A DNA stretch of 64,000 nt, taken from IMG/VR virus record IMGVR_UViG_3300028833_000002; one strand, 5' to 3'. Below, piece after piece: positions 5,366-58,570 of this stretch. The DNA is from a virus (lineage: Duplodnaviria; Heunggongvirae; Uroviricota; Caudoviricetes). Under the pieces are notes generated by a model. It did not search any database. It had not been told where the DNA came from and worked only from the letters and a program-made list of their open reading frames with translations. The translations under genes were made by a program, and so were the position numbers. Position 1 is the stretch's first letter. Each line of letters opens with the position of its first letter.

Positions 5366-5372
5366 TGAGAAT

Positions 5373-5400
5373 GGGGTCTACACAGGCCCCTTTCTTTATC
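5373..5400 (+). terminator. rho-independent terminator
   Basis: Hairpin ggggtc-tacaca-ggcccc followed by TTTCTTT. Confidence 0.55.
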
Positions 5401-5402
5401 TC

Positions 5403-5431
5403 TTTACTTTTTCCTCAAATTATGTTATAAT
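5403..5431 (+). promoter_or_regulatory. sigma70/sigmaA-type promoter, family copy 1
   Basis: TTTACT, 17 nt, TATAAT with extended TG (TATGTTATAAT), ahead of gene 5456. Confidence 0.5.
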
Positions 5432-5455
5432 AAAAATAAAAAAGGAGGAATTAAA

Positions 5456-6580
5456 ATGAATTTTGATAACACACTAGCAACATTCGGCTCAGACGGTGGC
5501 GGTGAATTCAAACGTGATATTGACCGTGAAGAATCCATTGGTTATTCAGATGGCTCTTTCGCCGCGAAATGGGAACCTTTCGCAACAGCCGAAGAGCCAA
5601 TCGTGCCGCAAATTGATGACAAAATCCGTGGTATGTCTTATGGTTACTTTGCTAATCGCGGCGAAATAACATCGAAGAACGGTCTTGCTTCTCAGAGAAC
5701 AATGTTCAATGTGGGATTTAATTGGACTTGTTTAACAGTGGTAAACTACCAAGAATCCTACCATTCTACAAACATCTTCGCAGACCATTTGCGCACTCCG
5801 TCAGACCATGACATCGAATCATTTGTCAACGCCGCACATGAACGAGGGGTTAAGGTATGTTTAAAGCCAATGGTTCATTCTCAGGACAATGTATGGCGTG
5901 CTTTCATAAGTTTTCCATCACACAACATGGATGACGTGGATGCTTATTGGAAGCCGTGGTTTGAATCCTATAAGAACTTCATTCTCCACTATGCTGAACT
6001 GGCGCAGAAACTCGGTGTTGAAATGTTTTGTATTGGATGCGAAATGCTTGGCGCAGAATATCGTGAAGCTGACTGGAGATACATTATCTCCGAAGTTCGC
6101 AGAGTTTATACTGGTATCGTAATCTACAACACTAACCATGACCACGAAGATACTCAGGGATGGTTTGACAGTCTAGACTACATCGGCACATCAGCATACT
6201 ACCCAGTAGGCGACCCAGACAACTCCTATGATGGCATGGTTAAAGCATGGACTGATATACGTTATCGTCTTGACGCAATCGCGGCGAGCCGTAATAAACA
6301 GTTCATCTTCATGGAAATTGGTTGCCGTTCTGTCAAAGGTGCATCAGCACATCCATGGGACTTTAACTATGACCTTCCATACAGCGAATATGAACAACTC
6401 ACATTCTACCAGTCATGTATGGACGTATTCTATGATGACCCATATTTCGCCGGCGTATTCTGGTGGGATTGGCCAACATATCTCCCAACATCCGTAGGCC
6501 GCGATTTCTACATCCACAACAAACTAACTGAAAAATACTTGTATGATTTTAATACGGCAAAGGGTTAGACAAAAACTTAA
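5456..6580 (+). CDS. TIM-barrel glycoside-hydrolase-like protein (possible depolymerase); TAG at 6566 read through
   Basis: An AAGGAGG ribosome-binding site precedes the start. The sequence has clan GH-A-like features (FMEIGC, CIGCEM). The assignment is by motif only. Confidence 0.5.
5558..5568. repeat. exemplar of the palindromic 11-mer TTCGCSGCGAA (TTCGCCGCGAA)
   Basis: Perfect palindrome inside a CDS. Confidence 0.6.
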
Positions 6581-6635
6581 TATCACTACATAAATAGAGA
6601 GGATAGAAATATTCTCTCTATTTTTATTTTATGAG

Positions 6636-7181
6636 GTGATTAATATGACAAGAAACGAATTAGTAAAGTCATTAGAGGCCGACCTTGGTAAACAGCTTGG
6701 CTCTAATTACAATTATGATTGGTGCGCTGCATATGTATCAGATAAACTTTTAAGACCAATTGGAGAAAAGTGGTTTAGTTCATGTACTCAGATGCGTGAT
6801 TACTTCAACCAGAAAGGTAGAGTAAACCATGATTATAGAACCGCTGAAATTGGTGATATTATCGAGTTTGACTGGGATTTAAGCGGCGATTGCGACCATG
6901 TAGGAATCATCGTAGATGTAGACTATGCTAAGGGTATTATCACAACAATTGAAGGCAACACAGACGGAAATCACTGGAAACTTTCAAAGGTTGCAAAGCA
7001 TACTTACAGCATGGATTACAAATACTTCGCAAACATTATCGACATGAGTTCTGTTTTCATGAATGAAGCACAGGAAAACAAACCAGCCGGCGGAGAACAG
7101 ACAGATACAGTTCTTAAGGCTGTAAAACTCATTATCGACGGCGAAGTAGTTTATGATGGCTACGCAAGAATTAAGAAGTAA
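6636..7181 (+). CDS. CHAP-domain peptidoglycan hydrolase (endolysin candidate)
   Basis: There is a conserved Cys in DWCAAYVS and a His in CDHVGIIV, typical of CHAP/NlpC-P60. A GAGGTGA ribosome-binding site is present. Confidence 0.65.
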   Translation: MINMTRNELVKSLEADLGKQLGSNYNYDWCAAYVSDKLLRPIGEKWFSSCTQMRDYFNQKGRVNHDYRTAEIGDIIEFDWDLSGDCDHVGIIVDVDYAKGIITTIEGNTDGNHWKLSKVAKHTYSMDYKYFANIIDMSSVFMNEAQENKPAGGEQTDTVLKAVKLIIDGEVVYDGYARIKK

Positions 7182-7194
7182 TGAGGTGAATTAA

Positions 7195-7518
7195 ATGGCA
7201 GAAGAATTAGTTAAAGAAGAAGTTGTTGAGGAAGCTCCTAAGAAAAAGAGGGGGCGTCCGAAGAAATCTGAAACTGCCGCAGAAACAGCAGTAGTAGAAG
7301 AAACAACTCCAGAAGTAGTTGCAGAAGAACCTGTAGCCGAAGAAGTTGCCGAAGTTGCCGTTGAACCTACTGTAGAAGTTCCTGTTGAAATCGTTACAGC
7401 AGAACCTACAAAGGCAGAAGTTGTTATTCCTTTCGCGGCGAAAGAAGCACCAAACTTCTACGCTGCTCGTGCAAACTCACCATTTAACGGCACAACAATT
7501 TCTTGTGTATTTAGATAA
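7195..7518 (+). CDS. acidic Glu/Val/Pro-rich protein with an AT-hook-like KKKRGRPKK
   Basis: A ribosome-binding site is present. The sequence is low-complexity. Confidence 0.45.
   Translation: MAEELVKEEVVEEAPKKKRGRPKKSETAAETAVVEETTPEVVAEEPVAEEVAEVAVEPTVEVPVEIVTAEPTKAEVVIPFAAKEAPNFYAARANSPFNGTTISCVFR
7432..7442. repeat. exemplar TTCGCGGCGAA
   Basis: Perfect palindrome inside a CDS. Confidence 0.6.
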
Positions 7519-7538
7519 TAACAACAGGCGGTGAGATT

Positions 7539-9146
7539 ATGGCACTTGATTATTCTATTGTTGATGGAATAATCAAAACTCTTATCTCCGGTATTGACGG
7601 TGATAAAAAAGTCACCGCAGAAAATTTCTCAGGAAAGGACTTAAAACAATTCATAGACCACCAAGATGTGTTCTGGGATGGACTTGTATAGTTCATGCAG
7701 AATGAAGATGTAAAGATGGGCAAGTATGGATTGAAGCAAGCTGATTTTCTCAATGAGGAAAACGCGGCAAGTGTTGTTGAATTTATCAATGACCATGCTG
7801 ACCTCATTGAGAATTTTCTTGATGATTGTCTTGAAAGAAAGACCGAACACTGGAACAAGAGTTTTGATAAGTTAATTGAAACTTTTAATGATATGGTTGT
7901 GGAAGATAAATAGATTGGTGAATCTATTTTTACAATAAATGATATTACTGCCGCAAATGCTGGTAATAGTTTTCGCGGCGGAGAATGGGTAAAGCCTTGG
8001 TAGAATGTTGGTGGTTATGATTATGCAGAGGTAAGAGGTAATGATAAGAACAGAGAAATTCTTGATAATCCTTAGTTCTTACAATACACACATAGAATTT
8101 TTGATAAGTTTATTAGACTTCTTATGCCGAAATATGATAGAACACTTGCTGTAGAAGACCTGAACAGAAACTTCTGGGTTATTGGTTAGGTTTTGGCGGC
8201 AATATTGGAGTTCTTGTTTAATGATGATAACCCTTATAAAGATGTGTTTGATGGGATATTAGATGAGATTGCTTAGTTGTGGGAGAATTTGTTATACCTT
8301 TGGATTGGATTTATTGCTATTTCTTAGAAGAAATAGATTGAAGATGTTTAGTTTATTGTTATGAGAGCCCCGGCTGATGATATTAGGAACTTTGAGAAAA
8401 GGGATGGGGCAATGATAAATGCAGGGGGTTTTGATTCTTTTTAGCAATTCTCAAATCTATTAAATTCTTTTAAAAGTAAGGTTGATTTTTTAAAAGATAT
8501 ATATACTAATAGTACAATCGTTGTATTGTTAGAAATTCCTATTTATAAAGCGGGTTATAACGATTGGCATTTTGCAAATTGCTTCGGATTATATGTTTAT
8601 AATAGGAGAGTTAGTAATGTAGGAAATTTCTTAACTGTTATGTATACAGCAAAAGATTTTGCAGTAGATACTTCTGAGCCAGAGTGGTAGTGTTATCCAA
8701 TAACATGTATTGCTTCGGCAAGAACTCATTACCGTTCGCCAAATAGTAATTTGGAAATTATTGATGATTAGGAGTCGTTAGTCGAAAACCCACCACTCAC
8801 AACCTTTATAAAAAATGGCAAAGAATACTCAATAATCACAGAAGTCCGTCCAGATAGAACAATCTGCGCGGCAAGAACCAAATACAACCTATCAATTACT
8901 TTTAGTGGCAAAGACATTACAGACTTAGGAATTACAATGGATTTCTATGATGTTGCTTATGAGTTGTTTGGTGCAGCATCATCAAAAGTATTAACGGTTA
9001 ACCTTGTTTTAGATAATAATGAAATGGTATATGACAGTCACCAAAGCTATACATTACCTTAGCTATCGGGGACTGTTAAAGTTGAAAAAGGAATATATTG
9101 GGGGGAAGTTTTAGCAGACTTTAACCAAAATATTCACTTTAATTAA
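7539..9146 (+). CDS. structural protein, paralogue A (~535 aa), about 13 in-frame TAG codons
   Basis: Frame 0 is open from ATG 7539 to TAA 9144 and is interrupted only by TAG. The region 7914-9146 has no track ORF because of TAG density. It aligns to 11188-13356 and 15246-15803 (LMP...VEDLNRNFWVIx[Q/TAG]). Confidence 0.55.
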
Positions 9147-9160
9147 AGAGGTGATAGAAA

Positions 9161-10153
9161 ATGGCAATAACAGGAACAGGAACATAGGGAGACCCTTTCG
9201 TAGTGCATAGTTACGAGGAATTTATATCGTTGTCTGGTCACGAACCAATAACTGGCACTAAGGCAGTTTATATCCAGTTTTTTGATACTCCAAATCGAAC
9301 CATAGATTGTAACGATTACGGTTCTGAATTTAAATGGGGTGAATTTACTGGTAATGCTCGTCTCTATGGAAACTGCACATATTATATAGACTTAAACGGA
9401 TGTACAATTAAGAACTTTTTAATTGAAGATGGGAAAACAATGTTTTTTGGAGAAGATCAGCATGAGTGGAATGGTTCATATACACGGATTGAAATTAGTA
9501 ACGGTGCAATAAGAAACGTATTCATGGGCTCAGCAACATCAAAGGTGTGCGGCGACTATGTAGAGTTTCATGATGTGTCGCTGTCAGTTAACGCTTCAGG
9601 AAGCACTGTTGTTCCGTTTGATGGCAATGGTCACATAATTATCGACAACACGGCTTTATATTTAGTCGCAAGCACTCTTAATACGTCGCTCATGAAAGGT
9701 GCCCGAATAACAGATACAGATATTGAACTGCATATAGCCAATCAGAATGAGAAAAATATATTCGATGCCACTCTTACGGATTGTCGTATACAGGGAAAAA
9801 TTAGTGGTAAAGGTATGCCTACAGGTCTGAATGCCGATACTTGCGTCTTGGACCACTGCGGTTTAAATTCAAAATCTCTTAATTACACAAATTGTGTAAT
9901 CGATTTGGATTTAACCGATAGTCGCATAATAAACTATGGCTTTGGCGGGTCAAGATACGATGTGTTCATCAACTATAATGGTTATGACTTCAACACAAAC
10001 GTAATTTGCAACTCGCATCATCCTAACGACACCGGACATGAATCATTTTATGGCTACCAGTCAGACTGGAACTTCATCTCACACACTCTCATGCGAAATG
10101 GGGCGTATTTAAACTCAAAAGGCTTTACAGTAGTTGAAGTGGTTGAAGGGTGA
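9161..10153 (+). CDS. hypothetical structural protein; TAG at 9185
   Basis: An AAAGAGGTGA ribosome-binding site precedes ATG 9161. The gene ends at TGA. Confidence 0.5.
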
Positions 10154-10158
10154 CCTGA

Positions 10159-10716
10159 ATGGCTGATTGGAAAATAGTAGACGGTAATCTACCGTTTAAA
10201 GACGGCTTTGCTGTAAGACCTACCGAGTTTGATGATTATCCTAACTGGATATGGCATAATGTAGCAGACGAGTTACCATACAAGGTTGTATTTCCTACTC
10301 TGTTTGCTATAGATGATGCGCCTAAAGCATTGTGGAAGATAAGCGATGATTTACCTTTTAAGTCATCGTTTGCTCCACGATTTATAATTGACGATGCACC
10401 AGCTTCGTTGTGGAAAATCATTGATGGGGATTTACCATTTAAAAGTTTGTTTCCAAAAAACTATGGAATTACAGATGTCCCTCTCGGCATTTGGGCAATA
10501 AAAGACGGGGACCTACCATATCGTAGAAACTTTCCACCAATGCCGGGGCCTCCAACAATGTGGGGTACCATCACAGAACTTACCCTTTCTCAAATGCACA
10601 ACTCCCCAATACTTCTCAAAACCCAAAAGTCCCAAGACGTACAAATTGGTGACACAACAATCCCACATCAAATCACAAAGCGCTTATTCGAAGGCATAGA
10701 TTGGGAATTAATATAA
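10159..10716 (+). CDS. tandem-repeat protein (5 copies of ~22-aa DDAPxxLWKIxDGDLPFKSxF)
   Basis: Internal repeats are visible in the translation. The gene ends at TAA. Confidence 0.55.
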   Translation: MADWKIVDGNLPFKDGFAVRPTEFDDYPNWIWHNVADELPYKVVFPTLFAIDDAPKALWKISDDLPFKSSFAPRFIIDDAPASLWKIIDGDLPFKSLFPKNYGITDVPLGIWAIKDGDLPYRRNFPPMPGPPTMWGTITELTLSQMHNSPILLKTQKSQDVQIGDTTIPHQITKRLFEGIDWELI

Positions 10717-10728
10717 GGAGGTAGTAGT

Positions 10729-13700
10729 ATGAACTACGGACAAGACAAGTTCTTTAATGGCGACAAAGGCCTTTATACTACCCTCATATCAGACCTACTT
10801 AACAAATATAAATCAGACAACGATTTCCGGAAGGACGTCCAAGTGGACTCCTTCTGGAACGAGTCTTTAGCCAGACTTTTAGAATTACTTAACCAAAAGA
10901 TTGACCCTAATGGTATTCGTAATTATGAATCGTCTGGCTTATTAGTAGAACTGATAGACGGTACAATAGATGATTCTGTGTTAAGAGCCGCACTTACCAC
11001 AAAGGATTCAAATGATAGATATGCCGCAATCCGCTTAATGGATGTTATGGACGCGGATGCTGGTGCTAATTTTTGCGGCGAAGACGACTTATATGAACAG
11101 ATGCGCTTTTATGAAACCATTACTATCAATGGTGCAGTTGGTAAAAACGTTTTATTTGATAGTTAGGCTTTTGGACCATTAGATAAATTGTTAGCTGGGG
11201 AAGACATTCTTCATGGCGCCTTTACCTATATAATAAGGGGAATTCGTTCAGGCGTAGATGCCGAAACTGGAAAAGCCTACTGGCCACCTTATGCTGAAGG
11301 TGAAAATTCAGCAACGGCTTCAACTCCAACAACTTATCGGGTAGTCAAGAAACCATGGGTAATTCCTTGGTTCAATCTCGATATGGAAAGTTATTCTAAG
11401 GTTCGCGGCGAAGACAAGAAACTCAGTGTTCTCGCAGACCCATCAGACTTAGGCTTTACCTGTATGCAAAGAGATGGACTTGCAGACGACATGGAATTTA
11501 GAATCCAAGCTATGCAAATCTATAACATATTAGTTGAAATTGGTCTTGAAAAAAATAAAGGAGAAACAGAGTTTGACAAATACAGAGCTTACGGCAAACA
11601 AATCGACTATACATCTCATAGCTTTGAAAATATTAACATGGACAAACGTCAAGTTCTCGAAGTAGACGATACTGTAGAAACTGTTCTCGGAAGTTCAATG
11701 GCTATACGTATAGGTGATGTAATACCACCGGAATCTACCGTAGACTTTAGTAGTATTGAAGACATGTATGTTTCAATCTGTTATAGCCCATTAGAACAAA
11801 CAGAAGGCATCTATCCAATACAACTAACCAACGAAGAAGTAACGCAATACTTCTCAGACATAATCTACAATATACTTGAACAAAGCACAACAGCTCCAGA
11901 CCCATCGGATATAGTATTTAAAGTTAAAAACACAGATAGGGCCGCTAAGAACTTACTCGCCGCCATTGAGGTCGTAGACGAAGACCACGTAGATGACAAT
12001 GCTCCAGTTGCCCTTGGTAGTTGCTTACACTATTGCGGCAAGTTCGGTTCAATCCAACTCATGGAAAAAGAAGCCACAAAAGTCGCAGAAAGAATTGGTG
12101 TGACCTACGAAAAATTTGAAAACATGGAATTTGACGACTTCTGCTCTCTATGGGCGCAAAAAGCAAATCGTTGGATTCGTCTTATCATGCCGCAAAATAA
12201 ACGCAGAGTTGAAGTTGAAGACCTTAATAGAAACTTTTGGGTTATCGCTCAGGTAATTGCCGGCGTTAGTGCTTACTTATTTGACGGGGACGGTCCAATC
12301 AGTGAGTTCCTTAAAGGCATGATTAAAGAAATTGGTCAACTTTGGGAGAATGTTATTTACCTTTGGATGACGCAAAGTTTAATTGGAGAGCCTCCACTTA
12401 TAACAGATACACACTGTGAAGTGCTTATGCCGAACGCAGCTCACGGGAAAGTTTCAATGACCTATGATGATTTCGTTTGCTCTCCAGAACTCAATTATCT
12501 CTTACAAAAATATCCAGACAAAAACCTTTGCATTTTGCCTTACATGAGAAAAAATAATTATGAGAACGATTATTACTCTAAGGTATCGTTCCCAGGTGTT
12601 TATATCTATGATAGAAACATGGATAACCCTTCCTGGGAGGTCTTACCACTAAATACCACAGGGTTGGAAATAGATTTGGGAGATTATGCCGACCATATAT
12701 ATGGTCTGATTAAATTACCGGAATACAACATCTCAACTGGCAAATACATGGTAGACGATTTCACAGCAGAAATGTTCCCTGAGCACTACAGAAATTACTT
12801 AACTTTCGCGCCGCTTAGTTCAGCACCATACATTGGTCTTGACCTTAAGAGATACTATGGTCTTGCAAGAGATATTATAGATTTTGACGGAAAACTCTAC
12901 AAGAAAAATTCTGAAGGTATTTGGGAAAAGAATCCACAAATTGACATTCACATTATCTTTAGAGATACAGTAAGAGAAATGATGACAGATAGGGTAGCTA
13001 ACCTTATGGAGTATAAGGGTGAGTATGAGGAAGGAGTAATCACAACAAAGAAATATAAAACAGCTCTTGACAATGGCCCTCTTGGTGAAGTAGCGCCTAC
13101 ATTAACACCTATTAAAAAGGGCTACTATCAGGGCGAAATGTTAAGCACATATGTTGATGTTGATGACCCTATGTACTCAATTATGGTTTTACCTACCATG
13201 AAAACAGAGCCATATTACGAAACTGAAGCACACTTCAAATCTCATTACAATTACACAGATTTACCTGACCTTGTGGCTTCTGATAAACAAATCTTACTTG
13301 CATATGCAAAGGCAAGCGAAGATTATTCAAATAACCCAGCGGCATTTAAGATGTAGAACTATAATGCATTAAAGGCTTTATACACAACAGAAGAAGTTAT
13401 GTATAAGAATACAGCCGCGGTTTATGATAAAACCACAAGAAGTGCATTAGCAAGTGATACGTCAGGTGAGGAACCAGTTCTTGTATATCCTACATTTGCG
13501 GATTATTTAGCAGAGCTTGTGTCGGTAATCAACAAAGACAAGTATATTTCTCCTTACTGCTTAATATTTGCAGAAGGCGAAAAGAACTTCAACTATCGCG
13601 CCGATACAGAAGAACCACATAAAATGATTAAGTATTTAGCATCAAAAGATGGTTTAGTTTCTCAGTATTATGAGTCAACACATCCGACCGACTTCACCAA

Positions 13701-14769
13701 TGCTAATGCTGTTATTTATTGCGGCAAAGAACATATTGCATCAGATTATCCGGGCCATCGCACAATAAAACCAACTAATGGACATAGTTTCCTAAGTGGT
13801 GTACTTTCTGTTCAGAGAGACGGCGAAAAGTTCAAATTTGGCTATGGTAATTACACTTGCGAGGAAGCACTACAACTCCCTATTGATACAACTGGTGAGG
13901 GACGCACTACAACTTCAATAATGGCCGGACAGCATGAACAATGGTTAACTTGTAAACAGACTGGTTAGGATTTCGGCCCATCAACATGGCTCGTAGTAAA
14001 GGTTGAAGCTCCATATGCTGTTAATACTAAGTTGATTAATGGTAGTAACGACACTATGGAAAAATATTGTTGGGGCACACTGAGAGATGAAATAGACCTA
14101 AATAGATAGTTCGCAAGAAATATCGCGGTGCAATGGTCTACTCGTGAAGAAGCAGACACTTATATAGATACATGGGGAGATGCTGTAAATGCTATCAAAG
14201 AGGCTTTCGCGGCGGAAGAAATGGATATATATGAGGATTCATGGTATTTAGAGCAGGCAATTATAGGTATATCAAATTCACCTTACTATGATGAATGGTA
14301 TATAGAACAGTGTGGCCTTTATGATGACGACCCTCAATGGGATACTAAGGTAAGGGCATGGCTACAAGATAAAGGCATCACGCCGCAGACATACACATCT
14401 CATGGTTTTGATACATGGACTGGTGAACGTATTTTCATCAACACTTCAATGCGTTCTGAAATAAGAGTTTATATGTTCGGTCCGAATGGTATGTATGGTC
14501 AAAAGATTTACAGTAGAAATGCCGATGGTGAATTTGACCAAACTCACATTGAAACGGGCGGCACACATGATGTAGACACAGTTCGTGCTGGCTACGAAGT
14601 TATTAACAACTCTAGCCGCAATCGCAACTATGAAAAATATAAAGACTTCGGTCATAAAACGGACACAACATACTATGACCCAGACCAGATGGATGATACT
14701 GTAGAAGGCCCGGCATGGTATGAACAACACATTACTTGGGTAGACCAAAACCCTCCGTGGGATAATTAA
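10729..14769 (+). CDS. giant structural protein, paralogue B (~1346 aa), 4 in-frame TAG
   Basis: Track ORFs 10729, 11188, 13399 and 14128 share frame 1 and are separated only by TAG (11167, 13354, 13966, ~14107). An AGGAGG ribosome-binding site is present. Confidence 0.55.
11402..11412. repeat. exemplar TTCGCGGCGAA
   Basis: Perfect palindrome inside a CDS. Confidence 0.6.
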
Positions 14770-14780
14770 GAGGTGAGATA

Positions 14781-17708
14781 ATGGAACGTTGGTTAGAATT
14801 TTTAAAAACAATTACTAACTTAAAGGTTCTTGTTCAAATGCTCGGTCTTACTCCTGAAAACGAGGAACGATTCTGGAAAGACCTCCTGGCTTTACTTAAA
14901 AGTCAGGAGCATCCAGTCGTTTTTGATGATGGAGAACTTACTGGATTGGTTGGATAGGTAATTAGTTCAGCAGACTTTGAAGACAGAGATGAAGAACCTT
15001 TTACAAGTGAACTTTACAACACACTTAAAGAGCTGATTTATAATGATACTAATGATAGTTTTTGGAATGAGTCAGTTCAGCAATTAATTAAATATTTCAT
15101 CAAGAACATTGAAGAAAGACCGGAGGACAAGATACTGATTCCAATAGGTGATGATAATGAACATAGTATTAGAATCAGTGATTTAAAGGCCGCAGATGCC
15201 GGCAATGGTTTTGATTATACACCTATTAATGATGAAGACTATTGGGTGCGTCCAAGGTATAATATAGATGATAGGGCTTACGATGAAGTAAGAGGTCACG
15301 ATGCTCTTAATGATGATTTATCAAATGATACGGCTGTACAATTCACAAAAGAAAAAGATATTGAAACATGGATTAGACTCCTTATGCCGCAATATGGTAG
15401 AAGAGTTTTAGTTGAGGATTTAGATAGAAACTTTTGGGTTATTGCTTAGACTATTAGTGCTATTTGCGCATACTTATTTGGCGACGAAAATCCAATAAAT
15501 AAAATGTGTGAAGGTATCGCAAGAGAAGTTTCTGAGATATGGGAAAATGTGTTATACCTTTGGTTAGAAATCGCGGCAATAACACAGAAGAAACAGAAAG
15601 GTATTAGAGTAATGAGTTTGTATGTGCCGCCAAGAGATAATGAACATGGCAGAAAATATGATGACTTTGAAAGTAAAAACAGTGCTATGTCATGGGATAT
15701 TGATGAATATGGTAATATGGTTATCACAGTTGAAGATTGGAATAGTTATAAGAATGAGATTGTGGATAGAATCGGTTATTTAACTGAGGATTTCGCAAAT
15801 TAGGACTTATGTGTTCTTCCAATTGTTAGACTTGATAATTATACAGTTGACTTCTATTCTACAGAATACTATCCTATGGTTTTATTCTATTCTAAAGATA
15901 CTAAGGAATGGACTTACAAGCGTATTAAGGAATAGATTGGTGATACATTAAAGGATTCTTTACTTATTTCGCCGCGATTTGAAGATAAGACAGACGGTAA
16001 GAAACGCTTTACTGATTAGATTATGGGACAGTTTAGAGTTTGTGATGGCGATATGGTAGTGTGGCCTTTCTCAAAAGTTCCAAGTCAAAGTAATGGTGAA
16101 GAAAATCCAACCTTAAAGTATATTGGTTGTTTACGTGTTAAACCAAACATTACTTTAAAGGAGAATGAAACAGAGATAGAAAATCTTGAATTATCTGTTT
16201 ATGATACATTTGCTATGATTTCTACTTCACATGAGGGAGAAATGGTAGACCGAGACTATAGTTTTATAGGTAAATATAGTTTAGTTCCTAGCAATGATGA
16301 CAGCCTTGTGCTTACTTATCAGGCTGATTCAGAACAGGCTGAACAGAGAGAAGAAGAATATGAAGATGACGCTATTCCTTGGCGAGAGCTAAAGGCTTGG
16401 TACGGCGGCGAAGTGGCATCATGGATGTTAGAAACTGCTTCTATCATTTCTTCTGATAATCTGTTTAACAATCAGGCTTATGTTCTTAAAATAGGAAATT
16501 ATCTACCAGAAAATGGCGATGATTTTATTATGGCTTCTGTTGATGATAGTGGCACTTTCAAATACACATCTATGTATGGAAACGTCACAAGAAAATCAGG
16601 AACGGGCCGCAACACCAAATACTATAGACTTAGATGGGACACTTACCAACCGGAAAATGATGGCGGGCCAGATGAAGCTGTTAAAAACAATAAAATTTGT
16701 TATGCAAAAGACCCGGAAAAACGACCATGCACATATCCAACAAAAGCTCATATAGAATATGATGGACTTATCGCGGCGAAGAATTTCATCAAAGCAAATG
16801 CAGGAACTGTAGGTAAGAACCCATGCTTCATTGCGACAACAATTGGCTTAACTCCGTGGTCAGGTACGGGAAGAACAGGTAGCGACGTTTTCTGGGATGT
16901 ATCATTCTTGCCGGCACTATATTTCTATATTCCTACCATAGAGTCATTAACTGGTATGCCATAGGAAACAGAGGGCTATGATTTTTCTCCATACATCAAA
17001 ACCTATACAGAGAATGAAGCCATTTATTTGGTTAATGATTAGCTTAATGCTGATGAAAGACCAGACGGGGACGGCACAGTCTATACCGAAGAAAATGGTC
17101 AAAAGAAAGAAATCGGCAAAATTATCGCTTGCTTACCTATGAATAGATATGAAAGTTACTTTAGAAAGCTGGGTCTTGAAGCTGATGATGGAACTTATAT
17201 GGGTGACTCGCACTGGAGACAATTCTACATTACCAATAATGATGAAAACAACGTATGCTCCAAAGAAGATGTTAATGGTGGTGCAAAAGTGCCGGGCGGT
17301 ACAACAATTTACCAAGCGACTTTTACACCTCGTTTTTGCGGCATGGTAGAATACTTTGACGTACTTCGCCACAACGCATCAAACAGAACAGCATTACTTT
17401 GGGAAGACCAAATTGCAAAAGTTTCAGAAGCAGTAGTTTAGATAGACCAAGACGGCTACGAACAAACAGAAGAAGGCTCAATTAGGTCAGCAAAAAATGT
17501 TGCGTTACCATGGGAAGATAGAGAAGCCTATGAAACACAAAGGTCAACTATGGCAACTGGTTTCCAACAGTTGATGAAAGAAGAAGATGGAGAATGGCAC
17601 GAACGTCCGGAAGACATTTATGGTAATATAGAAAAATGCATCGGGAAAAATGCAGAATACTTCCATGGTAATACAAAACTTAATGGCGGCTTGTGTATAT
17701 ATAGTTAA
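14781..17708 (+). CDS. structural protein, paralogue C (~975 aa), about 8 in-frame TAG
   Basis: Frame 0 is open from 14781 to TAA 17706. Track ORFs 15246, 16023 and 17139 are in the same frame. A GAGGTGA ribosome-binding site is present. Confidence 0.55.
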
Positions 17709-17717
17709 GTAAAACCC

Positions 17718-17746
17718 TTTACTTTTCTACAAAACTATGCTATAAT
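17718..17746 (+). promoter_or_regulatory. promoter family copy
   Basis: TTTACT-17-TATAAT (tatgcTATAAT). Confidence 0.5.
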
Positions 17747-17883
17747 AGATAATGTTCTTAGGAAATACTTTGAACATTATCTATTTTTTTCTACATTATC
17801 TTTGATGCTTGCTTTTTGCGAGTACAACTTACAGTAAAATCTCCCTAAGCGGCGATACTTCGCCAAATAAGGAGGAATTTTTT

Positions 17884-18792
17884 ATGAATAAGAAGAACTT
17901 AAACATGATGTGTGGCATCGTTATTGGCCTAGCGATGTGTTTTACAGTTGCAAGTTGCGGCTAGAACACAAAAGTAGACCTAGTAAACACAGATACTATT
18001 TATGCAGATGTCGCAGAAAGCACAGCAGAAACGACCATTGAAACAACTGTAATAACAACAGTTGCTACATCTAATTCCACAACAACTTCTGCCGCAATCA
18101 CCACAGCAGAAACAACAGTGGAAACAACTAATGCAGAAACAGAAGCTCCGGCAACAGAAGCTGAAGTAGTAATAGTGCCAGAAACAGAAGCACCAGCAGA
18201 ATATGTAGAACCAACACCGGAAACAGAAACTGAACCAGCACCAGTGGTTGAGCCAGTAGAAGAATACTTAGTTTATAAGCCAAGTACATATTACATCCAT
18301 CGTAGCACTTGCAGATGGAACAAAGATGACGCTTATCGTATAGACTCGGCTAATGGACTTACAGCAAGACTTTGTACTGAATGTTGCCCGGAATGTGATG
18401 GATTTGAAGAATACGTTCCGCCAGTGGAAGAAGCTCCAAGTTCTGATGGTTTAACATATTTTGGTTATTTCGGAAGAGTAACATATTACCCAGCAACAGC
18501 ATATTATGATGGTGTTTGCGGCGGTTCAGGTAGAACTCTTATGGGTTATGGTGATTATGGTAATGGCATAAGAGGTTCTGTAGCAAGCAGAACTTTATAT
18601 GAGACATATGGATATAATAGAAATGGTAGAACAACAGTTTATCTCGAATTTCCGGGGTATCCGGAGATGAATGGAACGTACTATTGTGATGATTGCTGTA
18701 GAGATTATGGTGTAATTGACGTTTTCGTATGGAGTGATTATAGCTGTCCATTCTATAATGCCGGTGTAATTACAGCAGACTGTTACATTTAA
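17884..18792 (+). CDS. lipoprotein with Thr/Glu/Pro linker and RlpA-like DPBB (lytic-transglycosylase-like) domain
   Basis: The signal peptide ends in the lipobox VASC. A TAG follows the Cys. The C-terminus reads GRVTYY...GGSG...VASRTL...NGRTTVYLEF. An AAGGAGG ribosome-binding site is present. Confidence 0.55.
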
Positions 18793-20618: not shown

Positions 20619-21171
20619 AACATATGTTATAGCAAACCTTAATCTGTTTGAGCATGGCGACGACACCAAAAGCAGTATCGTTGAGAACTGGAATAAAGTG
20701 GTAAGTGAAGATGATGTTGTTATTGTCATGGGGCCTGTAGGAGTTGGTAGCTTTGATGAAATGAAAAGTGTAATTAGCCAACTCAACGGTGAAAAACTTT
20801 TATATGATTATAGCATTAATCAAATGTTTACCAAAGAGGAATGGAAGGAAATCGGTTTTAAATATTGTTGGAATACACCAATGTTCAATGAATTACCAAA
20901 TGGTGAACTTGTGTTCTATGTACTAGCAGATGATTCTGTACATACTAGAGAAGATTGTGCTTTGTTCGTGACGAGTACAAATCATAATGTTGGTGACATT
21001 AAAAATTACTTTATTCCTGACGCAGATACTTTTGATTTTTGTCCTATAGATGCGGATGAGGTTCTAAATGTTTATAATAATATGATGGCTTTTGAAAGTA
21101 TGCCGGACACTGTTGAAACTCATAGTGAGGTTAAAGAGCTTGAATGGGGTGATGTTAAATGGGATTCGTAA
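20611..21171 (+). CDS. metallophosphoesterase-like protein with degenerate motifs
   Basis: The layout resembles the protein at 33623, but the metal ligands are altered (FEHGDD, IVMGPVG). Confidence 0.4.
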   Translation: MNKTYVIANLNLFEHGDDTKSSIVENWNKVVSEDDVVIVMGPVGVGSFDEMKSVISQLNGEKLLYDYSINQMFTKEEWKEIGFKYCWNTPMFNELPNGELVFYVLADDSVHTREDCALFVTSTNHNVGDIKNYFIPDADTFDFCPIDADEVLNVYNNMMAFESMPDTVETHSEVKELEWGDVKWDS

Positions 21172-22196
21172 TAGGTGCTATTTTCGCGGCAGCAATAATA
21201 CTTGGTTATTGTTTTTTCCATAACAAGTAGGTTAGGCATAAAGAGGCTATCATAGAAGCTGAATATGCACAGAGATTAATAGCCGAGATTTCCAACAATG
21301 TAGTTGCCGAAAAGAACAGACTAATTGATGAACAGGTTTCGGAACACCTAAGACAAGCAACTGAGGACGTTTCCAAATAGCTAAAAACGGTAACAGATGA
21401 ATTTGAAGCTCGTAAGACTCAAATCTATCAACAATTACAGTGTTTGGAAAATGAACTAAGCACAGCGATTGCTAACAAAAACGCTCGTATAAGGGAAATA
21501 ACTGAGGAACTTTCTCGACAATCAGCCGTGGTTGCAACTGAAAATACTGAGAAACTTAATGAGTTAAAGCAACAGTTTCTTGCCGCGAAAGAACAGATAC
21601 AATCAGAGTTCACAACATTCTCTGATGACATCGCGGCGAAAAAGGAAACTCTTCAAAAGGAGCTTGCGGCGCAAGAAGCAAAACAAAAAGAAATTATAGA
21701 GCAATACAAGCGTGCCGAACAAATCAGAGAACAAGAAAACTTCTATCGTATTGTTCTCACTGACAATGAAAAAGAAGATGTTTGTAAACTCCGTAAAATG
21801 GCAGAGGACTTACATGACCCTACCGCCCTTTATAAACTTATCTATGAACAATATTACAAGCGTCCATTCAATGAACTTATGGGGCGCATCATTGGTGAAG
21901 ATACTAGCGTAGGTATCTATAAAATCACCAACATAGAAAACGGCAAATGCTACATAGGTCAAACTAAACAAGAATTTAAAACACGTTTTCTTCAGCACGT
22001 AAAGAGAGGTCTTAAGGTAGAACCATCTACTAAAAATAAACTCTATGCGGCAATGTGGGAAGATGGTGTGGAAAACTTTACCTTTGAAATCTTGGCGCAT
22101 TGTGAAGCAGAAGACCTTAATACTAAGGAAAAAGAATTTATAAACTTCTATAAAGCCAATGAGTGGGGATACAATTCCACTACCGGCGGCTCATAA
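21159..22196 (+). CDS. N-terminal TM helix, coiled coil and C-terminal GIY-YIG nuclease domain; 2 in-frame TAG
   Basis: ATG 21159 is in frame with track ORF 21444. GIYKITNIENGKCYIGQT, R and H are present. A TM helix lies at the N-terminus. Confidence 0.55.
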
Positions 22197-24388: not shown

Positions 24389-24397
24389 GTGAAACTC

Positions 24398-24426
24398 TTT
24401 ACTTTTAGTGAGAGATATGTTATAAT
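24398..24426 (+). promoter_or_regulatory. promoter family copy driving the suppressor tRNA (about 290-nt leader)
   Basis: TTTACT-17-TATGTTATAAT. Confidence 0.55.
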
Positions 24427-24713
24427 ATAAATATAGTAAAAAGCACGAGTCAGTCGTGTAACAGTTATATAGCGAAGGTTCAGACTTCAATAAGTAGGGC
24501 GTAAGCCGCGAAAACATTGGCTTCTGTTCAAAAAAGAGTCGCTGGTTGTACATACAAGATATGTACATGTAAGGGAAGAAGATGTTGGGTGCGCAGAGCA
24601 TGGGATACCTTCTCAACATCCAGACCTACTACAAGCTCTGTTTAGGCTGTCACTATCTTGCCCATGTGATAGCCGGTCGAAGGGATTCCGATGGCAATAG
24701 GAATTCCATATGC

Positions 24714-24788
24714 TTCCACGTCGTCAAGAGGCTCAAGACACCGCTCTCTAAAAGCGGCATTTCGAAGGTTCGAATCCTTCCGTGGAAA
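24714..24788 (+). tRNA. amber suppressor tRNA, anticodon CUA (reads UAG); Gln-like body with U1:A72
   Basis: The acceptor is ttccacg/cgtggaa. The anticodon arm is ccgct-ctCTAaa-agcgg. The T-arm is gaagg-ttcgaat-ccttc. It has its own promoter at 24398. Confidence 0.7.
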
Positions 24789-24834
24789 TCGCGGCAATCC
24801 GCAAATAAAATATTTTAAAAAGAGGTAATAATTT

Positions 24835-25191
24835 ATGTACAAATGTCCAGTATGCAATTTTTCAACAGATGATATTGTTGCTTACAGCGAACACATCGCA
24901 AAGGAAGCTGACAAGGAAGTAAAGGCTCAGAAGGATAAGGAGCTGAAGATTAAGGAAAAGGCAGAACAGGAAATCACAGATGGTATCAAGGCTATCAATG
25001 CTAAGATTAAGGCTTACAATGACAAGTATGGTAAGACCGACAACATTAAGGAACTTAGATTCTGTAAGGAAGGTAAAGTTGTTTTTCGCGGCGCAAGGTC
25101 TGATTGCCCTGTAGTAGAAGACCCACTTGCCGACATAAGCACAGAAGACTTTGAAAAGCTCATTAATAGCGTATTTGACCTTACAAACTAA
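24835..25191 (+). CDS. zinc-finger-like (CPVC) coiled-coil protein
   Basis: A GAGG ribosome-binding site is present. Confidence 0.5.
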   Translation: MYKCPVCNFSTDDIVAYSEHIAKEADKEVKAQKDKELKIKEKAEQEITDGIKAINAKIKAYNDKYGKTDNIKELRFCKEGKVVFRGARSDCPVVEDPLADISTEDFEKLINSVFDLTN

Positions 25192-25200
25192 GGAGCAGCC

Positions 25201-25365
25201 ATGAAAAGATATAAGGACTATTCAAAAGATTTTGACAAGGCTGAACCAATGGATGTCATACCAAACGAGTACAAGAAGAAGAAAGAAAAGGATTCAGAGC
25301 GCAGACGTTCTAAGCGCAAGAGAGATAATTATTACGATGATGATGACGAGGAGGACTACGAATGA
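25201..25365 (+). CDS. small highly charged protein (54 aa)
   Basis: An AAGGAG ribosome-binding site is present. It is not in the track because it is shorter than 60 aa. Confidence 0.35.
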   Translation: MKRYKDYSKDFDKAEPMDVIPNEYKKKKEKDSERRRSKRKRDNYYDDDDEEDYE

Positions 25366-25682
25366 TAGTTAACGGTAAAATTGGTGCAACAGCACTCGCA
25401 GGCAATGGCGGTGTAATTGCAGTAGCTACAAAGATTGATGGTAATAAGGCAGAAGCTCAGATTCCGGTTAAGCTGGAGGACATTGGCAAGGTTCTTGCAA
25501 TTGCAGAAGTTCCTGTTTGGGAAAACCTTGTTGGGGCTTCAATTAGAATTAATTATGTTCAGAATGAGGATGGCGATTATGCTATTACCAATATCCTGAA
25601 CTATCTTGAAGACAATGTGTCTATTGAGATTGATAATTCAGAACCAGAGCCGGAAGCTGTAGAAGCAGAACCAGCTGAATAA
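25362..25682 (+). CDS. hypothetical protein
   Basis: Overlapping stop and start. Confidence 0.5.
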   Translation: MIVNGKIGATALAGNGGVIAVATKIDGNKAEAQIPVKLEDIGKVLAIAEVPVWENLVGASIRINYVQNEDGDYAITNILNYLEDNVSIEIDNSEPEPEAVEAEPAE

Positions 25683-25698
25683 TTTCCATAAAATACCA

Positions 25699-25736
25699 AA
25701 AGTGTCAGTGTTTATAAAGCATTGACACTTTTTTTA
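25699..25736 (+). terminator. rho-independent terminator (overlaps the -35 of the next promoter)
   Basis: Hairpin aaagtgtca/tgacacttt followed by TTTTTTT. Confidence 0.55.
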
Positions 25737-28906: not shown

Positions 28907-29113
28907 ATGCTTGATAATTGGAAAACCAATATACTTGACAATTGGAGAGCTGTAGATATAGAAGGTATTAAATCCGTAATAGCATATCGCGGTCATATTT
29001 TTCTCGACATTGAGGAATTACATCAATGGAAAATAGAAAATGAGTGGAATGGTATTGATATTGCTGTAACCAAAGAAGATATATTAAGAGAAGGAGAAAT
29101 ATATAATGACTAA
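28907..29113 (+). CDS. hypothetical protein Confidence 0.4.
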   Translation: MLDNWKTNILDNWRAVDIEGIKSVIAYRGHIFLDIEELHQWKIENEWNGIDIAVTKEDILREGEIYND

Positions 29114-38815: not shown

Positions 38816-38819
38816 GAAT

Positions 38820-44410: not shown

Positions 44411-44412
44411 AA

Positions 44413-58564: not shown

Positions 58565-58570
58565 TCGTAT

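What the first reader, a model, noticed from the sequence alone, without database searches (positions are those of the whole stretch)
24398..24788. Phage-encoded amber suppressor tRNA (anticodon CUA) with its own promoter and a ~290-nt leader
A cloverleaf can be drawn with a perfect 7-bp acceptor (ttccacg/cgtggaa). The anticodon stem ccgct/agcgg encloses the loop ctCTAaa. The T-arm is gaagg-ttcgaat-ccttc.

The D-arm and the U1:A72 pair resemble the two Gln tRNAs at 51519 and 52836. This fits a Gln-derived suppressor.

It sits behind a copy of the early promoter (24398-24426). The standard-code ORFs overlapping it (24582-24818 +, 24642-24857 -) are therefore spurious.
Basis: seen in the sequence. 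Interest (0 to 1): 0.8.

Follow-up and report, generated by a model that had tools for sequence, protein, structure and literature searches.

The report
Phage amber-suppressor tRNA with structured leader
A rumen phage that writes many glutamines as the stop codon TAG carries the tRNA that reads TAG, which is a known trick, but here the tRNA is transcribed behind a conserved, folded 280-base RNA of unknown function that matches no catalogued RNA family.

Summary
ARAGORN and Rfam both call a tRNA with anticodon CUA at 24714-24788 (+). It lies about 280 nt downstream of one of 27 same-strand copies of a sigma-70-type extended -10 promoter.

The window is part of a roughly 190-kb phage from ruminant gut that reads TAG as a sense codon. 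Genes at 1-18.8 kb carry 36 in-frame TAGs. In orthologues, 34% of the sense codons opposite TAG are CAA or CAG, against a 1.8% background, so TAG means Gln. This kind of feature is already known (genetic code 15 phages; Borges, Peters).

Two things appear undescribed.
- **Structured leader.** The leader (24433-24713) is a structured RNA, not a spacer. It has 11 helices, and 8 base pairs show compensatory changes across 9 distinct sequences. It matches no Rfam family and is single-copy. It stays linked to a CUA tRNA even where the tRNA body has been swapped.
- **Interrupted relatives.** In several relatives that also use TAG as sense, the same tRNA is interrupted in its anticodon loop. The interruption is either a 49-nt structured insertion or a 781-nt homing-endonuclease insertion. 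Neither can hold a group I ribozyme, and default tRNA finders miss these genes.

The function of the leader is inferred, not shown.

The parts
24398..24426 (+). Sigma-70/sigma-A-type promoter: -35 TTTACT (24398-24403), extended -10 TG (24418-24419), -10 TATAAT (24421-24426).
   Evidence: It is one of 27 + strand copies, against 0.07 expected (also listed). The hexamers are conserved in all relatives. The start site near 24433 is inferred from spacing.
24433..24713 (+). Structured leader RNA of about 281 nt and 44% GC. Predicted helices: 24443-48/24454-59; 24460-64/24638-42; 24470-75/24539-44; 24478-90/24517-29; 24497-500/24505-09; 24547-54/24560-67; 24572-74/24625-27; 24581-89/24612-20; 24600-03/24608-11; 24645-53/24666-74; 24682-92/24697-707.
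   Evidence: RNAalifold consensus structure. Across 9 distinct sequences, 98.4% of cells are paired. Eight pairs change on both sides, against 3.9+-1.2 in shuffles (0/500) and 0-2 in slid controls. No Rfam family matches at E<=10. A covariance model finds only this one copy.
24714..24788 (+). Amber suppressor tRNA with anticodon CUA at 24748-24750, U1:A72, discriminator A73, and no encoded CCA.
   Evidence: ARAGORN; Rfam 54.5 bits. Orthologues show compensatory changes in the acceptor, anticodon and T stems.
24789..24834 (+). Conserved 3' trailer. It holds a small hairpin GCGG-CAAT-CCGC (24791-24802) and then the ribosome-binding site of the next gene. UCGCGGC (24789-24795) is complementary to leader GCCGCGA (24505-24511).
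   Evidence: Conserved in all relatives, including the one with a swapped tRNA. The long-range pairing appears in the MFE and centroid folds but has no covariation, so it is undecided.
24835..25682 (+). Three small ORFs (24835-25191, 25201-25365, 25362-25682) lying downstream of the leader-tRNA, in the same inferred transcription unit. The first has a zinc-finger-like N terminus.
   Evidence: ORF list. There is no terminator-like site on the + strand between the tRNA and 25698. PHROG and Pfam give only weak zinc-finger hits.
25698..25732 (+). Intrinsic-terminator-like hairpin (16 pairs followed by a T run) that would end the transcription unit.
1778..18792 (+). TAG-recoded tail and lysis gene block that the suppressor serves. 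In-frame TAG counts: 1778-5365 has 7, 7539-9146 has 13, 10729-14769 has 4, 14781-17708 has 8.
   Evidence: Reading TAG as sense fuses fragments into ORFs of up to 1351 codons. The block includes an endolysin and a tail-fibre-like esterase. TAG aligns with CAA/CAG in orthologues and with Q in paralogues.
21159..22196 (+). GIY-YIG-domain gene in the otherwise TAG-free region. It has 2 in-frame TAGs (21228, 21378) in its N-terminal part.
   Evidence: The orthologue in L124 has 6 in-frame TAGs.

Best explanation
**The tRNA (shown).** The element is a functional phage-encoded amber suppressor tRNA (anticodon CUA). It lets the host ribosome read the phage's in-frame UAG codons as glutamine (genetic code 15). 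These codons are concentrated in tail and lysis genes at 1-18.8 kb.

**Transcription and processing (inferred).** A host-type extended -10 promoter (24398-24426) drives one precursor: a roughly 280-nt structured leader, then the tRNA, then a short trailer, then three small ORFs up to the terminator at 25698. RNase P would cut at 24713|24714, freeing the tRNA 5' end and releasing the leader as a discrete RNA. RNase Z-type trimming and CCA addition would finish the 3' end, because no CCA is encoded.

**Charging (inferred).** Host enzymes would charge the tRNA with Gln. C34 and U35 of the anticodon, G10 and the weak U1:A72 pair are elements recognised by GlnRS, and U1:A72 is the mark used by the GluRS/GatCAB route.

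**The leader (structure shown, function inferred).** My best guess, at about 45%, is that it is a stable non-coding RNA. The flanking tRNA would serve as its processing signal, as the tRNA-flanked ROOL RNA in the same genome suggests. Its role would be tied to the code switch. The next option, at about 35%, is a cis-acting element that sets the rate or timing of suppressor maturation.
For: **tRNA.**. Orthologues keep the cloverleaf through compensatory changes.

**Recoding.**
- The longest ORF grows from 730 to 1351 codons when TAG is read as sense.
- There are 36 in-frame TAGs in late genes and essentially none after 19 kb.

**TAG means Gln.**
- Of the sense codons opposite TAG in four orthologues, 21 of 62 are CAA or CAG, against a 1.8% background. 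Glu accounts for 10 of 62.
- Paralogue motifs show the same pattern, FWVIA[TAG] against FWVIAQ.
- Among the window's tRNAs, the combination U1:A72 + A73 is shared only by the two Gln tRNAs.
- In relative L050 the tRNA-CUA at the same locus has the Gln-type acceptor UGCUCCG/CGGAGCA.

**Promoter.**. Suppressor tRNAs in distant relatives L005 and L030 also have their own promoter of this type, but with short leaders.

**Leader.** Covariation. The substitution pattern is not protein-like and indels break the frame. It is single-copy.

**ROOL precedent.** ROOL at 53631-54219 sits 12 nt after one tRNA and 18 nt before the next.

**Literature.**
- Code-15 phages and their suppressor tRNAs: bioRxiv 10.1101/2021.08.26.457843, PMC9523058, PMC12386605.
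- ROOL and GOLLD lying near tRNAs: PMC5737381.
Against: - No expression, processing or charging data exist.
- The tRNA body is not overall closest to the phage's Gln tRNAs (63-65% identity). It also lacks the G2:C71, G3:C70 and G73 elements used by E. coli GlnRS.
- Glu is the second most common residue opposite TAG, so partial Glu insertion is not excluded.
- Only 64 kb of a roughly 190-kb genome is visible, so a second suppressor could exist.
- The leader family is narrow (88-99% identity). Six of 11 helices are invariant and therefore untested.
- Nothing indicates what the leader binds or does.
- Several relatives carry this tRNA interrupted, so the locus is not always directly functional.
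Confidence: 0.8

Rival explanations
1. The leader is a cis-acting brake or timer rather than an independent RNA. Its folded structure ends 6 nt before the tRNA, and it may pair with the 3' trailer. This would slow RNase P/Z maturation, so that active suppressor and read-through of TAG-containing tail and lysis genes appear only later, even though the promoter is of the constitutive host type.
For: - The other promoter-proximal tRNAs of this phage have leaders of only about 30-120 nt.
- The leader is always linked to a CUA tRNA, even when the tRNA body is swapped.
- The last helix ends at 24707, 6 nt before the tRNA.
- There is 7-nt complementarity between the leader and the trailer.
- Borges et al. 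propose that delayed code change regulates lysis (10.1101/2021.08.26.457843).
Against: - There is no terminator or antiterminator alternative, and no covariation supports the leader-trailer helix.
- Predicted folding leaves the cloverleaf intact.
- Suppressor tRNAs of distant relatives do without such a leader.
Confidence: 0.35
2. The leader is a ribozyme or guide RNA, for example a degenerate or split group I-like core. It would serve removal or mobility of the insertions that interrupt the anticodon loop of this tRNA in relatives.
For: - Relatives carry a 49-nt or a 781-nt insertion that has no ribozyme of its own. The 781-nt insertion encodes a PD-(D/E)XK homing endonuclease.
- The leader is about the size of a small group I intron and has many helices.
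- Insertion-bearing phages still use TAG as a sense codon.
Against: - No group I, RNase P or small self-cleaving ribozyme model matches the window leader region, the L003 tRNA with its 49-nt insertion, or the L035 leader-to-tRNA region, even at E<=10.
- The leader is equally conserved in phages whose tRNA is uninterrupted, including this window.
- The insertion junctions (C34|G...U|U35 and A36|C...G|A37) do not follow the group I pattern of a 5' exon ending in U.
Confidence: 0.07
3. The tRNA inserts glutamate or a Glu/Gln mixture, or its main role is not decoding. Possible other roles are a decoy or replacement against host anticodon nucleases, or general harm to the host through read-through.
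For: - The D arm and anticodon stem look like the Asp/Glu type.
- Glu is the second most common residue opposite TAG.
- The phage carries an unusually rich tRNA repair set: a kinase+HD protein, two RNA ligases, a Thg1-like protein and a Ro/TROVE protein.
- PMC12386605 discusses suppressor tRNAs in phages that show no recoding.
Against: - Gln is enriched 19-fold opposite TAG, against about 2.4-fold for Glu.
- The 36 in-frame TAGs in long conserved genes require efficient decoding.
- U1:A72 is the mark that separates tRNAGln from tRNAGlu for GatCAB (established knowledge).
Confidence: 0.08
4. The 24427-24713 stretch encodes a small protein (the 78-codon ORF 24582-24818, or a minus-strand ORF), and the conservation reflects coding.
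For: An AG-rich stretch precedes the ATG at 24582. One relative has a 95-codon minus-strand ORF called by a gene finder.
Against: - Indels of +1, +2/3, -2 and +49 nt, and a swapped tRNA, break every frame among relatives.
- Substitutions are paired stem changes, not synonymous changes.
- The minus-strand 'protein' has no homologues beyond its own cluster.
- The exact translations of the window's three ORFs overlapping the leader and tRNA are not in the protein collection.
Confidence: 0.02

Closest known systems
Suppressor tRNA(CUA) of TAG-recoded (genetic code 15) gut phages: crAss-like, Lak and the Firmicutes-infecting clades of Borges et al. (10.1101/2021.08.26.457843), with proteomic proof in Peters et al. 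(PMC9523058)
   Same: - A phage-encoded tRNA-CUA.
- In-frame TAG concentrated in structural and lysis genes, with replication genes in the standard code.
- TAG means Gln.
- The host appears to use the standard code.
   Different: - Here the tRNA is the 3' part of a promoter-leader-tRNA unit whose 280-nt leader is a conserved structured RNA. I found no such leader described.
- The tRNA sits alone, 18 kb from the phage's tRNA arrays.
- Relatives carry it interrupted in the anticodon loop.
E. coli supE (glnV44), tRNAGln with anticodon CUA
   Same: Anticodon CUA, a U1:A72 first pair, and Gln insertion at UAG in competition with RF1 (established knowledge).
   Different: supE is a point mutant of a cellular tRNAGln with G2:C71, G3:C70 and G73. 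The phage tRNA has U2:A71, C3:G70 and A73, and its body is not clearly Gln-derived.
ROOL and GOLLD RNAs (PMC5737381, PMC12286853) and the T4 small stable RNAs C and D: large or stable structured RNAs encoded next to phage tRNA genes
   Same: A structured non-coding RNA of unknown function that abuts a tRNA in a phage genome, so tRNA processing would define its end. A genuine ROOL RNA (285 bits) lies between two tRNAs in this same window.
   Different: There is no sequence or structure match to ROOL, GOLLD or any other Rfam family. It is half the size of ROOL, is confined to one narrow phage group, and is specifically tied to the suppressor tRNA.
The 'code change module' of Jade phages (suppressor tRNA + aaRS + release factor upstream of the lysis cassette; Borges et al.)
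   Same: A dedicated, separately expressed unit, written in the standard code, that would switch on decoding of recoded late genes.
   Different: No aaRS or release factor was found in the 45 kb scanned. The partner of the tRNA here is an RNA, not a protein.
Group I introns with homing endonucleases in bacterial tRNA anticodon loops (cyanobacterial tRNALeu and tRNAfMet with I-Ssp6803I; Patescibacteria, PMC13011429)
   Same: Relatives have insertions in the anticodon loop. One (L035) encodes a PF11645 PD-(D/E)XK endonuclease of the I-Ssp6803I family (weak match to 2OST). Default tRNA finders miss these genes.
   Different: - The insertions are 49 nt, or 781 nt of which 735 nt is ORF, so there is no room for a ribozyme core.
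- No Rfam group I match was found.
- The window's own tRNA has no insertion.

Membership tests
tRNA (Rfam RF00005) | Cloverleaf with a 7-bp acceptor, D arm with G18G19, 5-bp anticodon stem, 7-nt loop with U33 and purine 37, and a T arm with GTTCRANYC. Score must be above the family threshold. | tested here: met
   54.5 bits against a gathering score of 29. ARAGORN call. The features can be read.
Amber suppressor tRNA of a TAG-to-Gln (code 15) phage | Anticodon CUA. | tested here: met
   The anticodon lies at 24748-24750.
Amber suppressor tRNA of a TAG-to-Gln (code 15) phage | The genome carries in-frame TAG in long, conserved genes, and TAG is rare as a terminator. | tested here: met
   There are 36 in-frame TAGs in genes at 1-18.8 kb. 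Of 83 ORFs after 18.9 kb, all can end in TAA (62) or TGA (21), and at most 4 could use TAG as a stop.
Amber suppressor tRNA of a TAG-to-Gln (code 15) phage | TAG positions correspond to Gln in homologues. | tested here: met
   Of the sense codons opposite TAG, 21 of 62 are CAA or CAG, against a 1.8% background. Paralogues agree.
Amber suppressor tRNA of a TAG-to-Gln (code 15) phage | The tRNA is expressed, charged with Gln and used at UAG. | not testable with these tools
   This needs RNA sequencing or Northern blots, charging assays and proteomics.
tRNAGln identity (GlnRS, or non-discriminating GluRS + GatCAB) | U1:A72 first pair. | tested here: met
   Among the window's 25 compared tRNAs, the combination U1:A72 + discriminator A73 is shared only by the two Gln tRNAs.
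tRNAGln identity (GlnRS, or non-discriminating GluRS + GatCAB) | E. coli-type GlnRS elements G2:C71, G3:C70 and G73. | tested here: not met
   The tRNA has U2:A71, C3:G70 and A73. The phage's own Gln tRNAs also have A73, so the E. coli rule may not apply to this host.
tRNAGln identity (GlnRS, or non-discriminating GluRS + GatCAB) | The body is derived from a tRNAGln. | tested here: inconclusive
   Identity to the two phage Gln tRNAs is 63-65%, no higher than to Ile or Phe. In relative L050 the tRNA-CUA at this locus does have a Gln-type acceptor.
tRNAPyl (the label ARAGORN gave) | Atypical fold: 6-bp anticodon stem, tiny D loop without G18G19, no TPsiC consensus, and pyl genes present. | tested here: not met
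   The tRNA has a normal 5-bp anticodon stem, GG in the D loop and TTCGAAT in the T loop. The label reflects the anticodon only.
Known structured-RNA families for the leader (T-box, group I intron, RNase P, 6S, tmRNA, Y RNA/YrlA, ROOL, GOLLD, riboswitches) | A match to the family covariance model. | tested here: not met
   cmscan of 24300-24900 at E<=10 returns only the tRNA and chance-level hits. The whole window at gathering thresholds returns only tRNAs and ROOL.
Group I intron in a tRNA anticodon loop (for the insertions in relatives) | A ribozyme core P3-P9 of about 200 nt or more, a 5' exon ending in U and an intron ending in G. | tested here: not met
   The 49-nt insertion is too short. 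The 781-nt insertion is 735 nt of ORF plus 33 and 13 nt of flank. The junctions are C|G...U|U and A|C...G|A. No Rfam hit was found.

The most novel reading that the evidence does not exclude
The suppressor tRNA is made as an inactive precursor, and its activation gates the phage's switch of genetic code.
- The conserved leader RNA would be one part of an RNA-level control.
- In many relatives, structured insertions that split the anticodon loop would be another part.
- Removal of the insertions would depend on phage-encoded RNA-processing and repair enzymes: the kinase+HD gene two genes upstream, two RNA ligases and a Thg1-like enzyme.

If true, this would be the first protein-catalysed, non-group-I tRNA splicing in a bacterial virus. 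It would also help explain why most TAG-recoded phages seem to lack a suppressor tRNA.
Probability: 0.12. Interest if true: 0.9.

Novelty: new variant of a known kind. Interest (0 to 1): 0.55.

Why it matters
Phage suppressor tRNAs are the accepted means by which recoded phages read a stop codon as sense. Two questions remain open.
- How is the switch timed?
- Why do only about 40% of TAG-recoded genomes show a detectable suppressor (Borges et al.)?

This locus bears on both.
- **Timing.** It offers a compact promoter-leader-tRNA unit in which a conserved structured RNA, not a protein, is the fixed partner of the suppressor. That unit can be tested directly with deletion reporters, RNA sequencing and structure probing.
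- **Detection.** The comparison with relatives shows one concrete way suppressor genes escape detection. Anticodon-loop insertions make default ARAGORN return nothing. With its intron option, ARAGORN assigns the wrong anticodon.

The leader also adds a new candidate to the small set of unexplained structured RNAs that travel with phage tRNAs, such as ROOL and GOLLD.

Tried and rejected
**Searches for a known identity or for homologues of the leader**
- Rfam at permissive thresholds on the window leader region, the L003 tRNA with its 49-nt insertion, and the L035 leader-to-tRNA region gave nothing beyond the tRNA. I therefore dropped the T-box, group I, RNase P, Y RNA and small-ribozyme readings that I had considered from motif resemblances.
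- Blastn against 50,697 phage records found no match.
- nhmmer and blastn of the leader against all fetched loci found only close relatives.
- I searched the protein database with the spurious ORF that gene finders call across the leader, hoping to reach distant copies. It returned only its own cluster.
- A metagenome pattern scan returned 72 loci, of which only 3 were real relatives.
- A genome scan found one real relative, a 180-kb contig binned with a yak-rumen Eubacterium MAG.
- A covariance model of the leader found no second copy in the window or in 27 other loci.

**Other dead ends**
- An IMG/VR search with a late protein found nothing.
- Neighbouring small proteins gave no informative family.

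**Ideas corrected or left open**
- From the first pairwise comparison (99% identity), I thought the leader evolves more slowly than the flanking genes. Across all relatives its identity (88-91%) is similar to that of the coding flanks.
- The UAG triplet in the leader, the complementarity between the leader and the insertion, and the leader-trailer pairing are all invariant and within chance expectation, so I left them undecided.
Full report
**1. The observation**

ARAGORN reports 26 tRNAs in the window. One of them, at 24714-24788 (+), has anticodon cta. Rfam's tRNA model scores it 54.5 bits against a threshold of 29, in the middle of the range for this phage's tRNAs (38.8-67.4).

- acceptor TTCCACG/CGTGGAA;
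- anticodon stem CCGCT/AGCGG;
- loop CTCTAAA with U33 and A36-A38;
- T arm GAAGG-TTCGAAT-CCTTC;
- GG in the D loop;
- discriminator A, and no encoded CCA.

ARAGORN's 'Pyl' label only reflects the anticodon, because the fold is an ordinary one.

The promoter at 24398-24426 (TTTACT, 17-nt spacer with TG, TATAAT) is one of 27 matches to that pattern. All 27 are on the + strand, against 0.07 expected by chance. The distance from the -10 element to the tRNA is 287 nt.

**2. The context is a TAG-recoded phage**

The window is 37.6% GC and almost all of its genes are on the + strand.

Reading TAG as sense raises the longest ORF from 730 to 1351 codons. It also joins fragments at 1-18.8 kb into long genes with 7, 13, 4 and 8 in-frame TAGs. 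From 19 kb onward, real ORFs have essentially none. The recoded block includes an endolysin and a tail-fibre-like esterase.

After 18.9 kb, all 83 ORFs can end in TAA (62) or TGA (21), and at most four could use TAG as a stop. One gene in the otherwise TAG-free region, the GIY-YIG gene at 21159-22196, has two in-frame TAGs.

The phage genome is about 191.6 kb. Relatives come from ruminant gut samples, and one 180-kb contig is binned with a yak-rumen Eubacterium MAG. The nearest annotated phage proteins are at most 36% identical and come from Firmicutes phages.

**3. Which amino acid TAG encodes**

Proteins in the public collection were called with code 15, which would make a protein-level test circular. 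I therefore compared codons directly.

In four orthologues of gene 7539-9146 there are 26 alignment columns where at least one orthologue has TAG. The sense codons in those columns are CAA or CAG in 21 of 62 cases (34%). Gln from CAA/CAG is only 1.8% of these proteins overall. Glu is second, at 10 of 62 against a 6.8% background.

Three paralogues within the window show TAG opposite Q in their best conserved motifs. TAG therefore means Gln, as in known code-15 phages (10.1101/2021.08.26.457843; PMC9523058).

**4. Is the tRNA a Gln tRNA?**

The evidence is only partial. Overall identity to the two phage Gln tRNAs is 63-65%, no better than to Ile or Phe.

The combination of U1:A72 with discriminator A73 is shared only with the two Gln tRNAs among the 25 compared. 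From established knowledge, U1:A72 is an identity mark for GlnRS and for GatCAB.

In relative L050, the tRNA-CUA at the same locus has a different body with the Gln-type acceptor UGCUCCG/CGGAGCA. Charging with Gln is therefore inferred, not shown.

**5. The leader is a structured RNA**

I obtained nine distinct versions of the leader. They came from relatives found through the downstream gene, a metagenome pattern scan and IMG/VR.

RNAalifold predicts 11 helices with 75 pairs. On the nine sequences:
- 98.4% of cells form standard pairs;
- 8 pairs show changes on both sides, against 3.9+-1.2 in shuffles (0 of 500 reach 8);
- controls with the partner slid by 1-3 columns give 0-2 such pairs.

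Five helices carry this covariation and six never vary. An example is 24547-54/24560-67, where UGUAC/GUACA becomes UGUGU/ACACA.

Long unpaired stretches are invariant, including AAAAAAGAGUCGCUGG, UAAGGGAAGAAGAUGUUGG, GCAGAGCAUGGGAUACC and CCAGACCUAC.

The interval is not coding. Indels of +1, +2/3 and -2 nt, a 49-nt insertion and a swapped tRNA break every frame.

No Rfam family matches at E<=10. A covariance model built from the alignment finds only this one copy in the window and in 27 other loci. All searches found the leader only in this narrow phage group.

Its identity to relatives (88-99%) is similar to that of the neighbouring genes. It is constrained, but not exceptionally so.

**6. 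The transcription unit**

No terminator-like site lies on the + strand between the promoter and 25698. The unit is therefore promoter, leader, tRNA, a conserved trailer with a small hairpin, three small ORFs, and then the terminator.

The last leader helix ends 6 nt before the tRNA. In a fold of the whole precursor the cloverleaf is kept, and leader GCCGCGA (24505-24511) pairs with trailer UCGCGGC (24789-24795). Both segments are invariant, and a 7-nt match is about what chance predicts, so I leave that pairing open.

Other tRNAs that directly follow a promoter in this phage have leaders of only about 30-120 nt. Suppressor tRNAs of distant relatives (L005, L030) also have their own promoter of the same type, but with leaders of about 90 and 35 nt that are not homologous to this one.

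The promoter motif also occurs inside the recoded block, at 5403 and 17718, so calling it 'early' is unverified.

**7. What relatives show at the same locus**

The tRNA at this locus is far more changeable than the leader. Four forms occur.

| Form | Loci |
|---|---|
| Uninterrupted, as in the window | L037, L038, L044, L079 |
| Same body with a 49-nt insertion between C34 and U35 | L003/L061, L031, L033, L034, L123-L127 |
| Same body with a 781-nt insertion after A36 | L035 |
| Uninterrupted, Gln-like body | L050 |

In L035, 735 nt of the insertion is an ORF for a PF11645 PD-(D/E)XK endonuclease. It gives a weak match to I-Ssp6803I (2OST).

The 49-nt insertion folds into two hairpins on a closing stem. 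One of its pairs changes on both sides, from GUGA/UCAC to GUAA/UUAC.

Default ARAGORN finds no tRNA in the interrupted loci. With introns allowed, it proposes a different splice and anticodon CGU. That reading would give G37, which is atypical for a tRNA that reads ACG.

The insertion-bearing phage L124 has 7 in-frame TAGs in its orthologue of 14781-17708 and 6 in its GIY-YIG gene, so it still needs suppression. Either the insertions are removed at the RNA level, or another suppressor lies elsewhere in genomes I could not see in full.

Neither insertion can hold a group I core, and none is detected.

The window encodes several RNA repair proteins:
- a P-loop kinase + HD protein two genes upstream of the tRNA (23029-23988);
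- a Thg1-like protein (29106-29915);
- two RNA ligases (38805-39707 and 44383-45531);
- a TROVE/Ro protein (60099-61751).

Together with an endonuclease, this is the enzyme set needed for protein-catalysed tRNA splicing. That link is a hypothesis only.

**8. Interpretation**

Shown:
- there is a real tRNA-CUA;
- the phage is TAG-recoded and TAG means Gln;
- the promoter is a real copy of the phage's recurrent promoter;
- the leader is a conserved structured RNA that matches no catalogued family.

Inferred:
- the transcription start site;
- RNase P and RNase Z processing and CCA addition;
- charging with Gln by host enzymes.

The function of the leader is unknown. I rank the options as follows.
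1. An independent stable RNA whose 3' end is made by RNase P at the tRNA, functionally tied to the code switch (about 45%). The tRNA-flanked ROOL RNA in the same genome is the precedent (PMC5737381).
2. A cis-acting brake or timer on suppressor maturation (about 35%).
3. A ribozyme or guide for the anticodon-loop insertions (about 7%).
4. Something else.

**9. Novelty and score**

A phage amber suppressor tRNA in a code-15 phage is a known kind. Two things go beyond what the papers I read describe:
- the fixed partnership with a 280-nt structured RNA;
- the interrupted alleles in recoded relatives.

Borges et al. explicitly note that 60% of TAG-recoded genomes lack a detectable suppressor. I rate the finding as a new variant of a known kind, with interest 0.55.

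Noticed in passing
window 53631-54219 (+): A full-length ROOL RNA (Rfam RF03087, 285 bits, E=2.7e-64). It lies 12 nt after tRNA-Leu(aag) and 18 nt before tRNA-Ile(gat), inside the phage tRNA array. Processing of the flanking tRNAs would excise it.
   Followed up: partly
window 23029-23988, 27711-28052, 29106-29915, 38805-39707, 44383-45531, 60099-61751: A dense set of RNA repair and tRNA-related genes.
- P-loop kinase (AAA_33) + HD protein: 23029-23988
- cREC_REC cyclic-phosphate domain, placed by synteny with L124: 27711-28052
- Thg1-like 3'-5' polymerase: 29106-29915
- RNA ligase PF09414: 38805-39707
- T4 Rnl1-like ligase: 44383-45531
- TROVE/Ro60-like protein: 60099-61751

No Y RNA was detected near the Ro gene.
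   Followed up: partly
L003/L061, L031, L033, L034, L123-L127 (e.g. L003 2762-2883): In these relatives the orthologous suppressor tRNA carries a 49-nt structured insertion between C34 and U35. Default ARAGORN finds no tRNA there. With introns allowed, it calls tRNA-Thr(cgt). L124 still has 7 and 6 in-frame TAGs in two genes.
   Followed up: partly
L035 1637-2417: Here the orthologous tRNA has a 781-nt insertion after A36. It is almost entirely a 244-codon PD-(D/E)XK (PF11645, I-Ssp6803I-like) homing-endonuclease ORF with a zinc-finger/HTH tail. There is no ribozyme around it.
   Followed up: partly
L050 753-825: The leader and trailer are the same, but the tRNA-CUA has a different body with the Gln-type acceptor UGCUCCG/CGGAGCA. 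The tRNA behaves as a replaceable cassette between conserved flanks.
   Followed up: partly
window 54320-54393, 54662-54732, 58569-58642: Odd tRNA-like genes.
- 54320-54393 has a 9-nt anticodon loop (Rfam 38.8 bits; missed by default ARAGORN).
- 54662-54732 is called with a 2-nt 'anticodon'.
- 58569-58642 is a tRNA-Cys with the unusual anticodon ACA.
   Followed up: no
window 7539-9146, 10729-14769, 14781-17708: Three large paralogous late proteins share a conserved core (RLLMPxYxRxxxVEDLNRNFWVI...LWENxxYLW). No PHROG or Pfam family matched the 7539-9146 paralogue; the other two were not scanned. In 7539-9146, TAG codons (13) outnumber CAA/CAG codons for Gln.
   Followed up: partly
window 5403 to 62012, 27 sites: The promoter motif TT(T/G)AC(T/A)-N14-TG-N-TATAAT is hugely over-represented. 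All 27 copies are on the + strand, against 0.07 expected, and some lie inside the recoded late block. No separate early or late promoter class is visible.
   Followed up: partly
L005 7537-7630: A distant relative (about 40% identity in the kinase+HD protein) has a 94-nt tRNA-CUA with a long variable arm (class II). It sits behind its own promoter and a hairpin leader of about 90 nt. This suggests a suppressor of a different tRNA type in that phage. An upstream ORF there contains an in-frame TAG.
   Followed up: no
L003 994-2037 and L035 622-918: Relatives have extra DNA between the kinase+HD gene and the next gene: 1044 nt in L003 and a 98-codon ORF in L035. This is another variable spot just upstream of the suppressor unit.
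   Followed up: no
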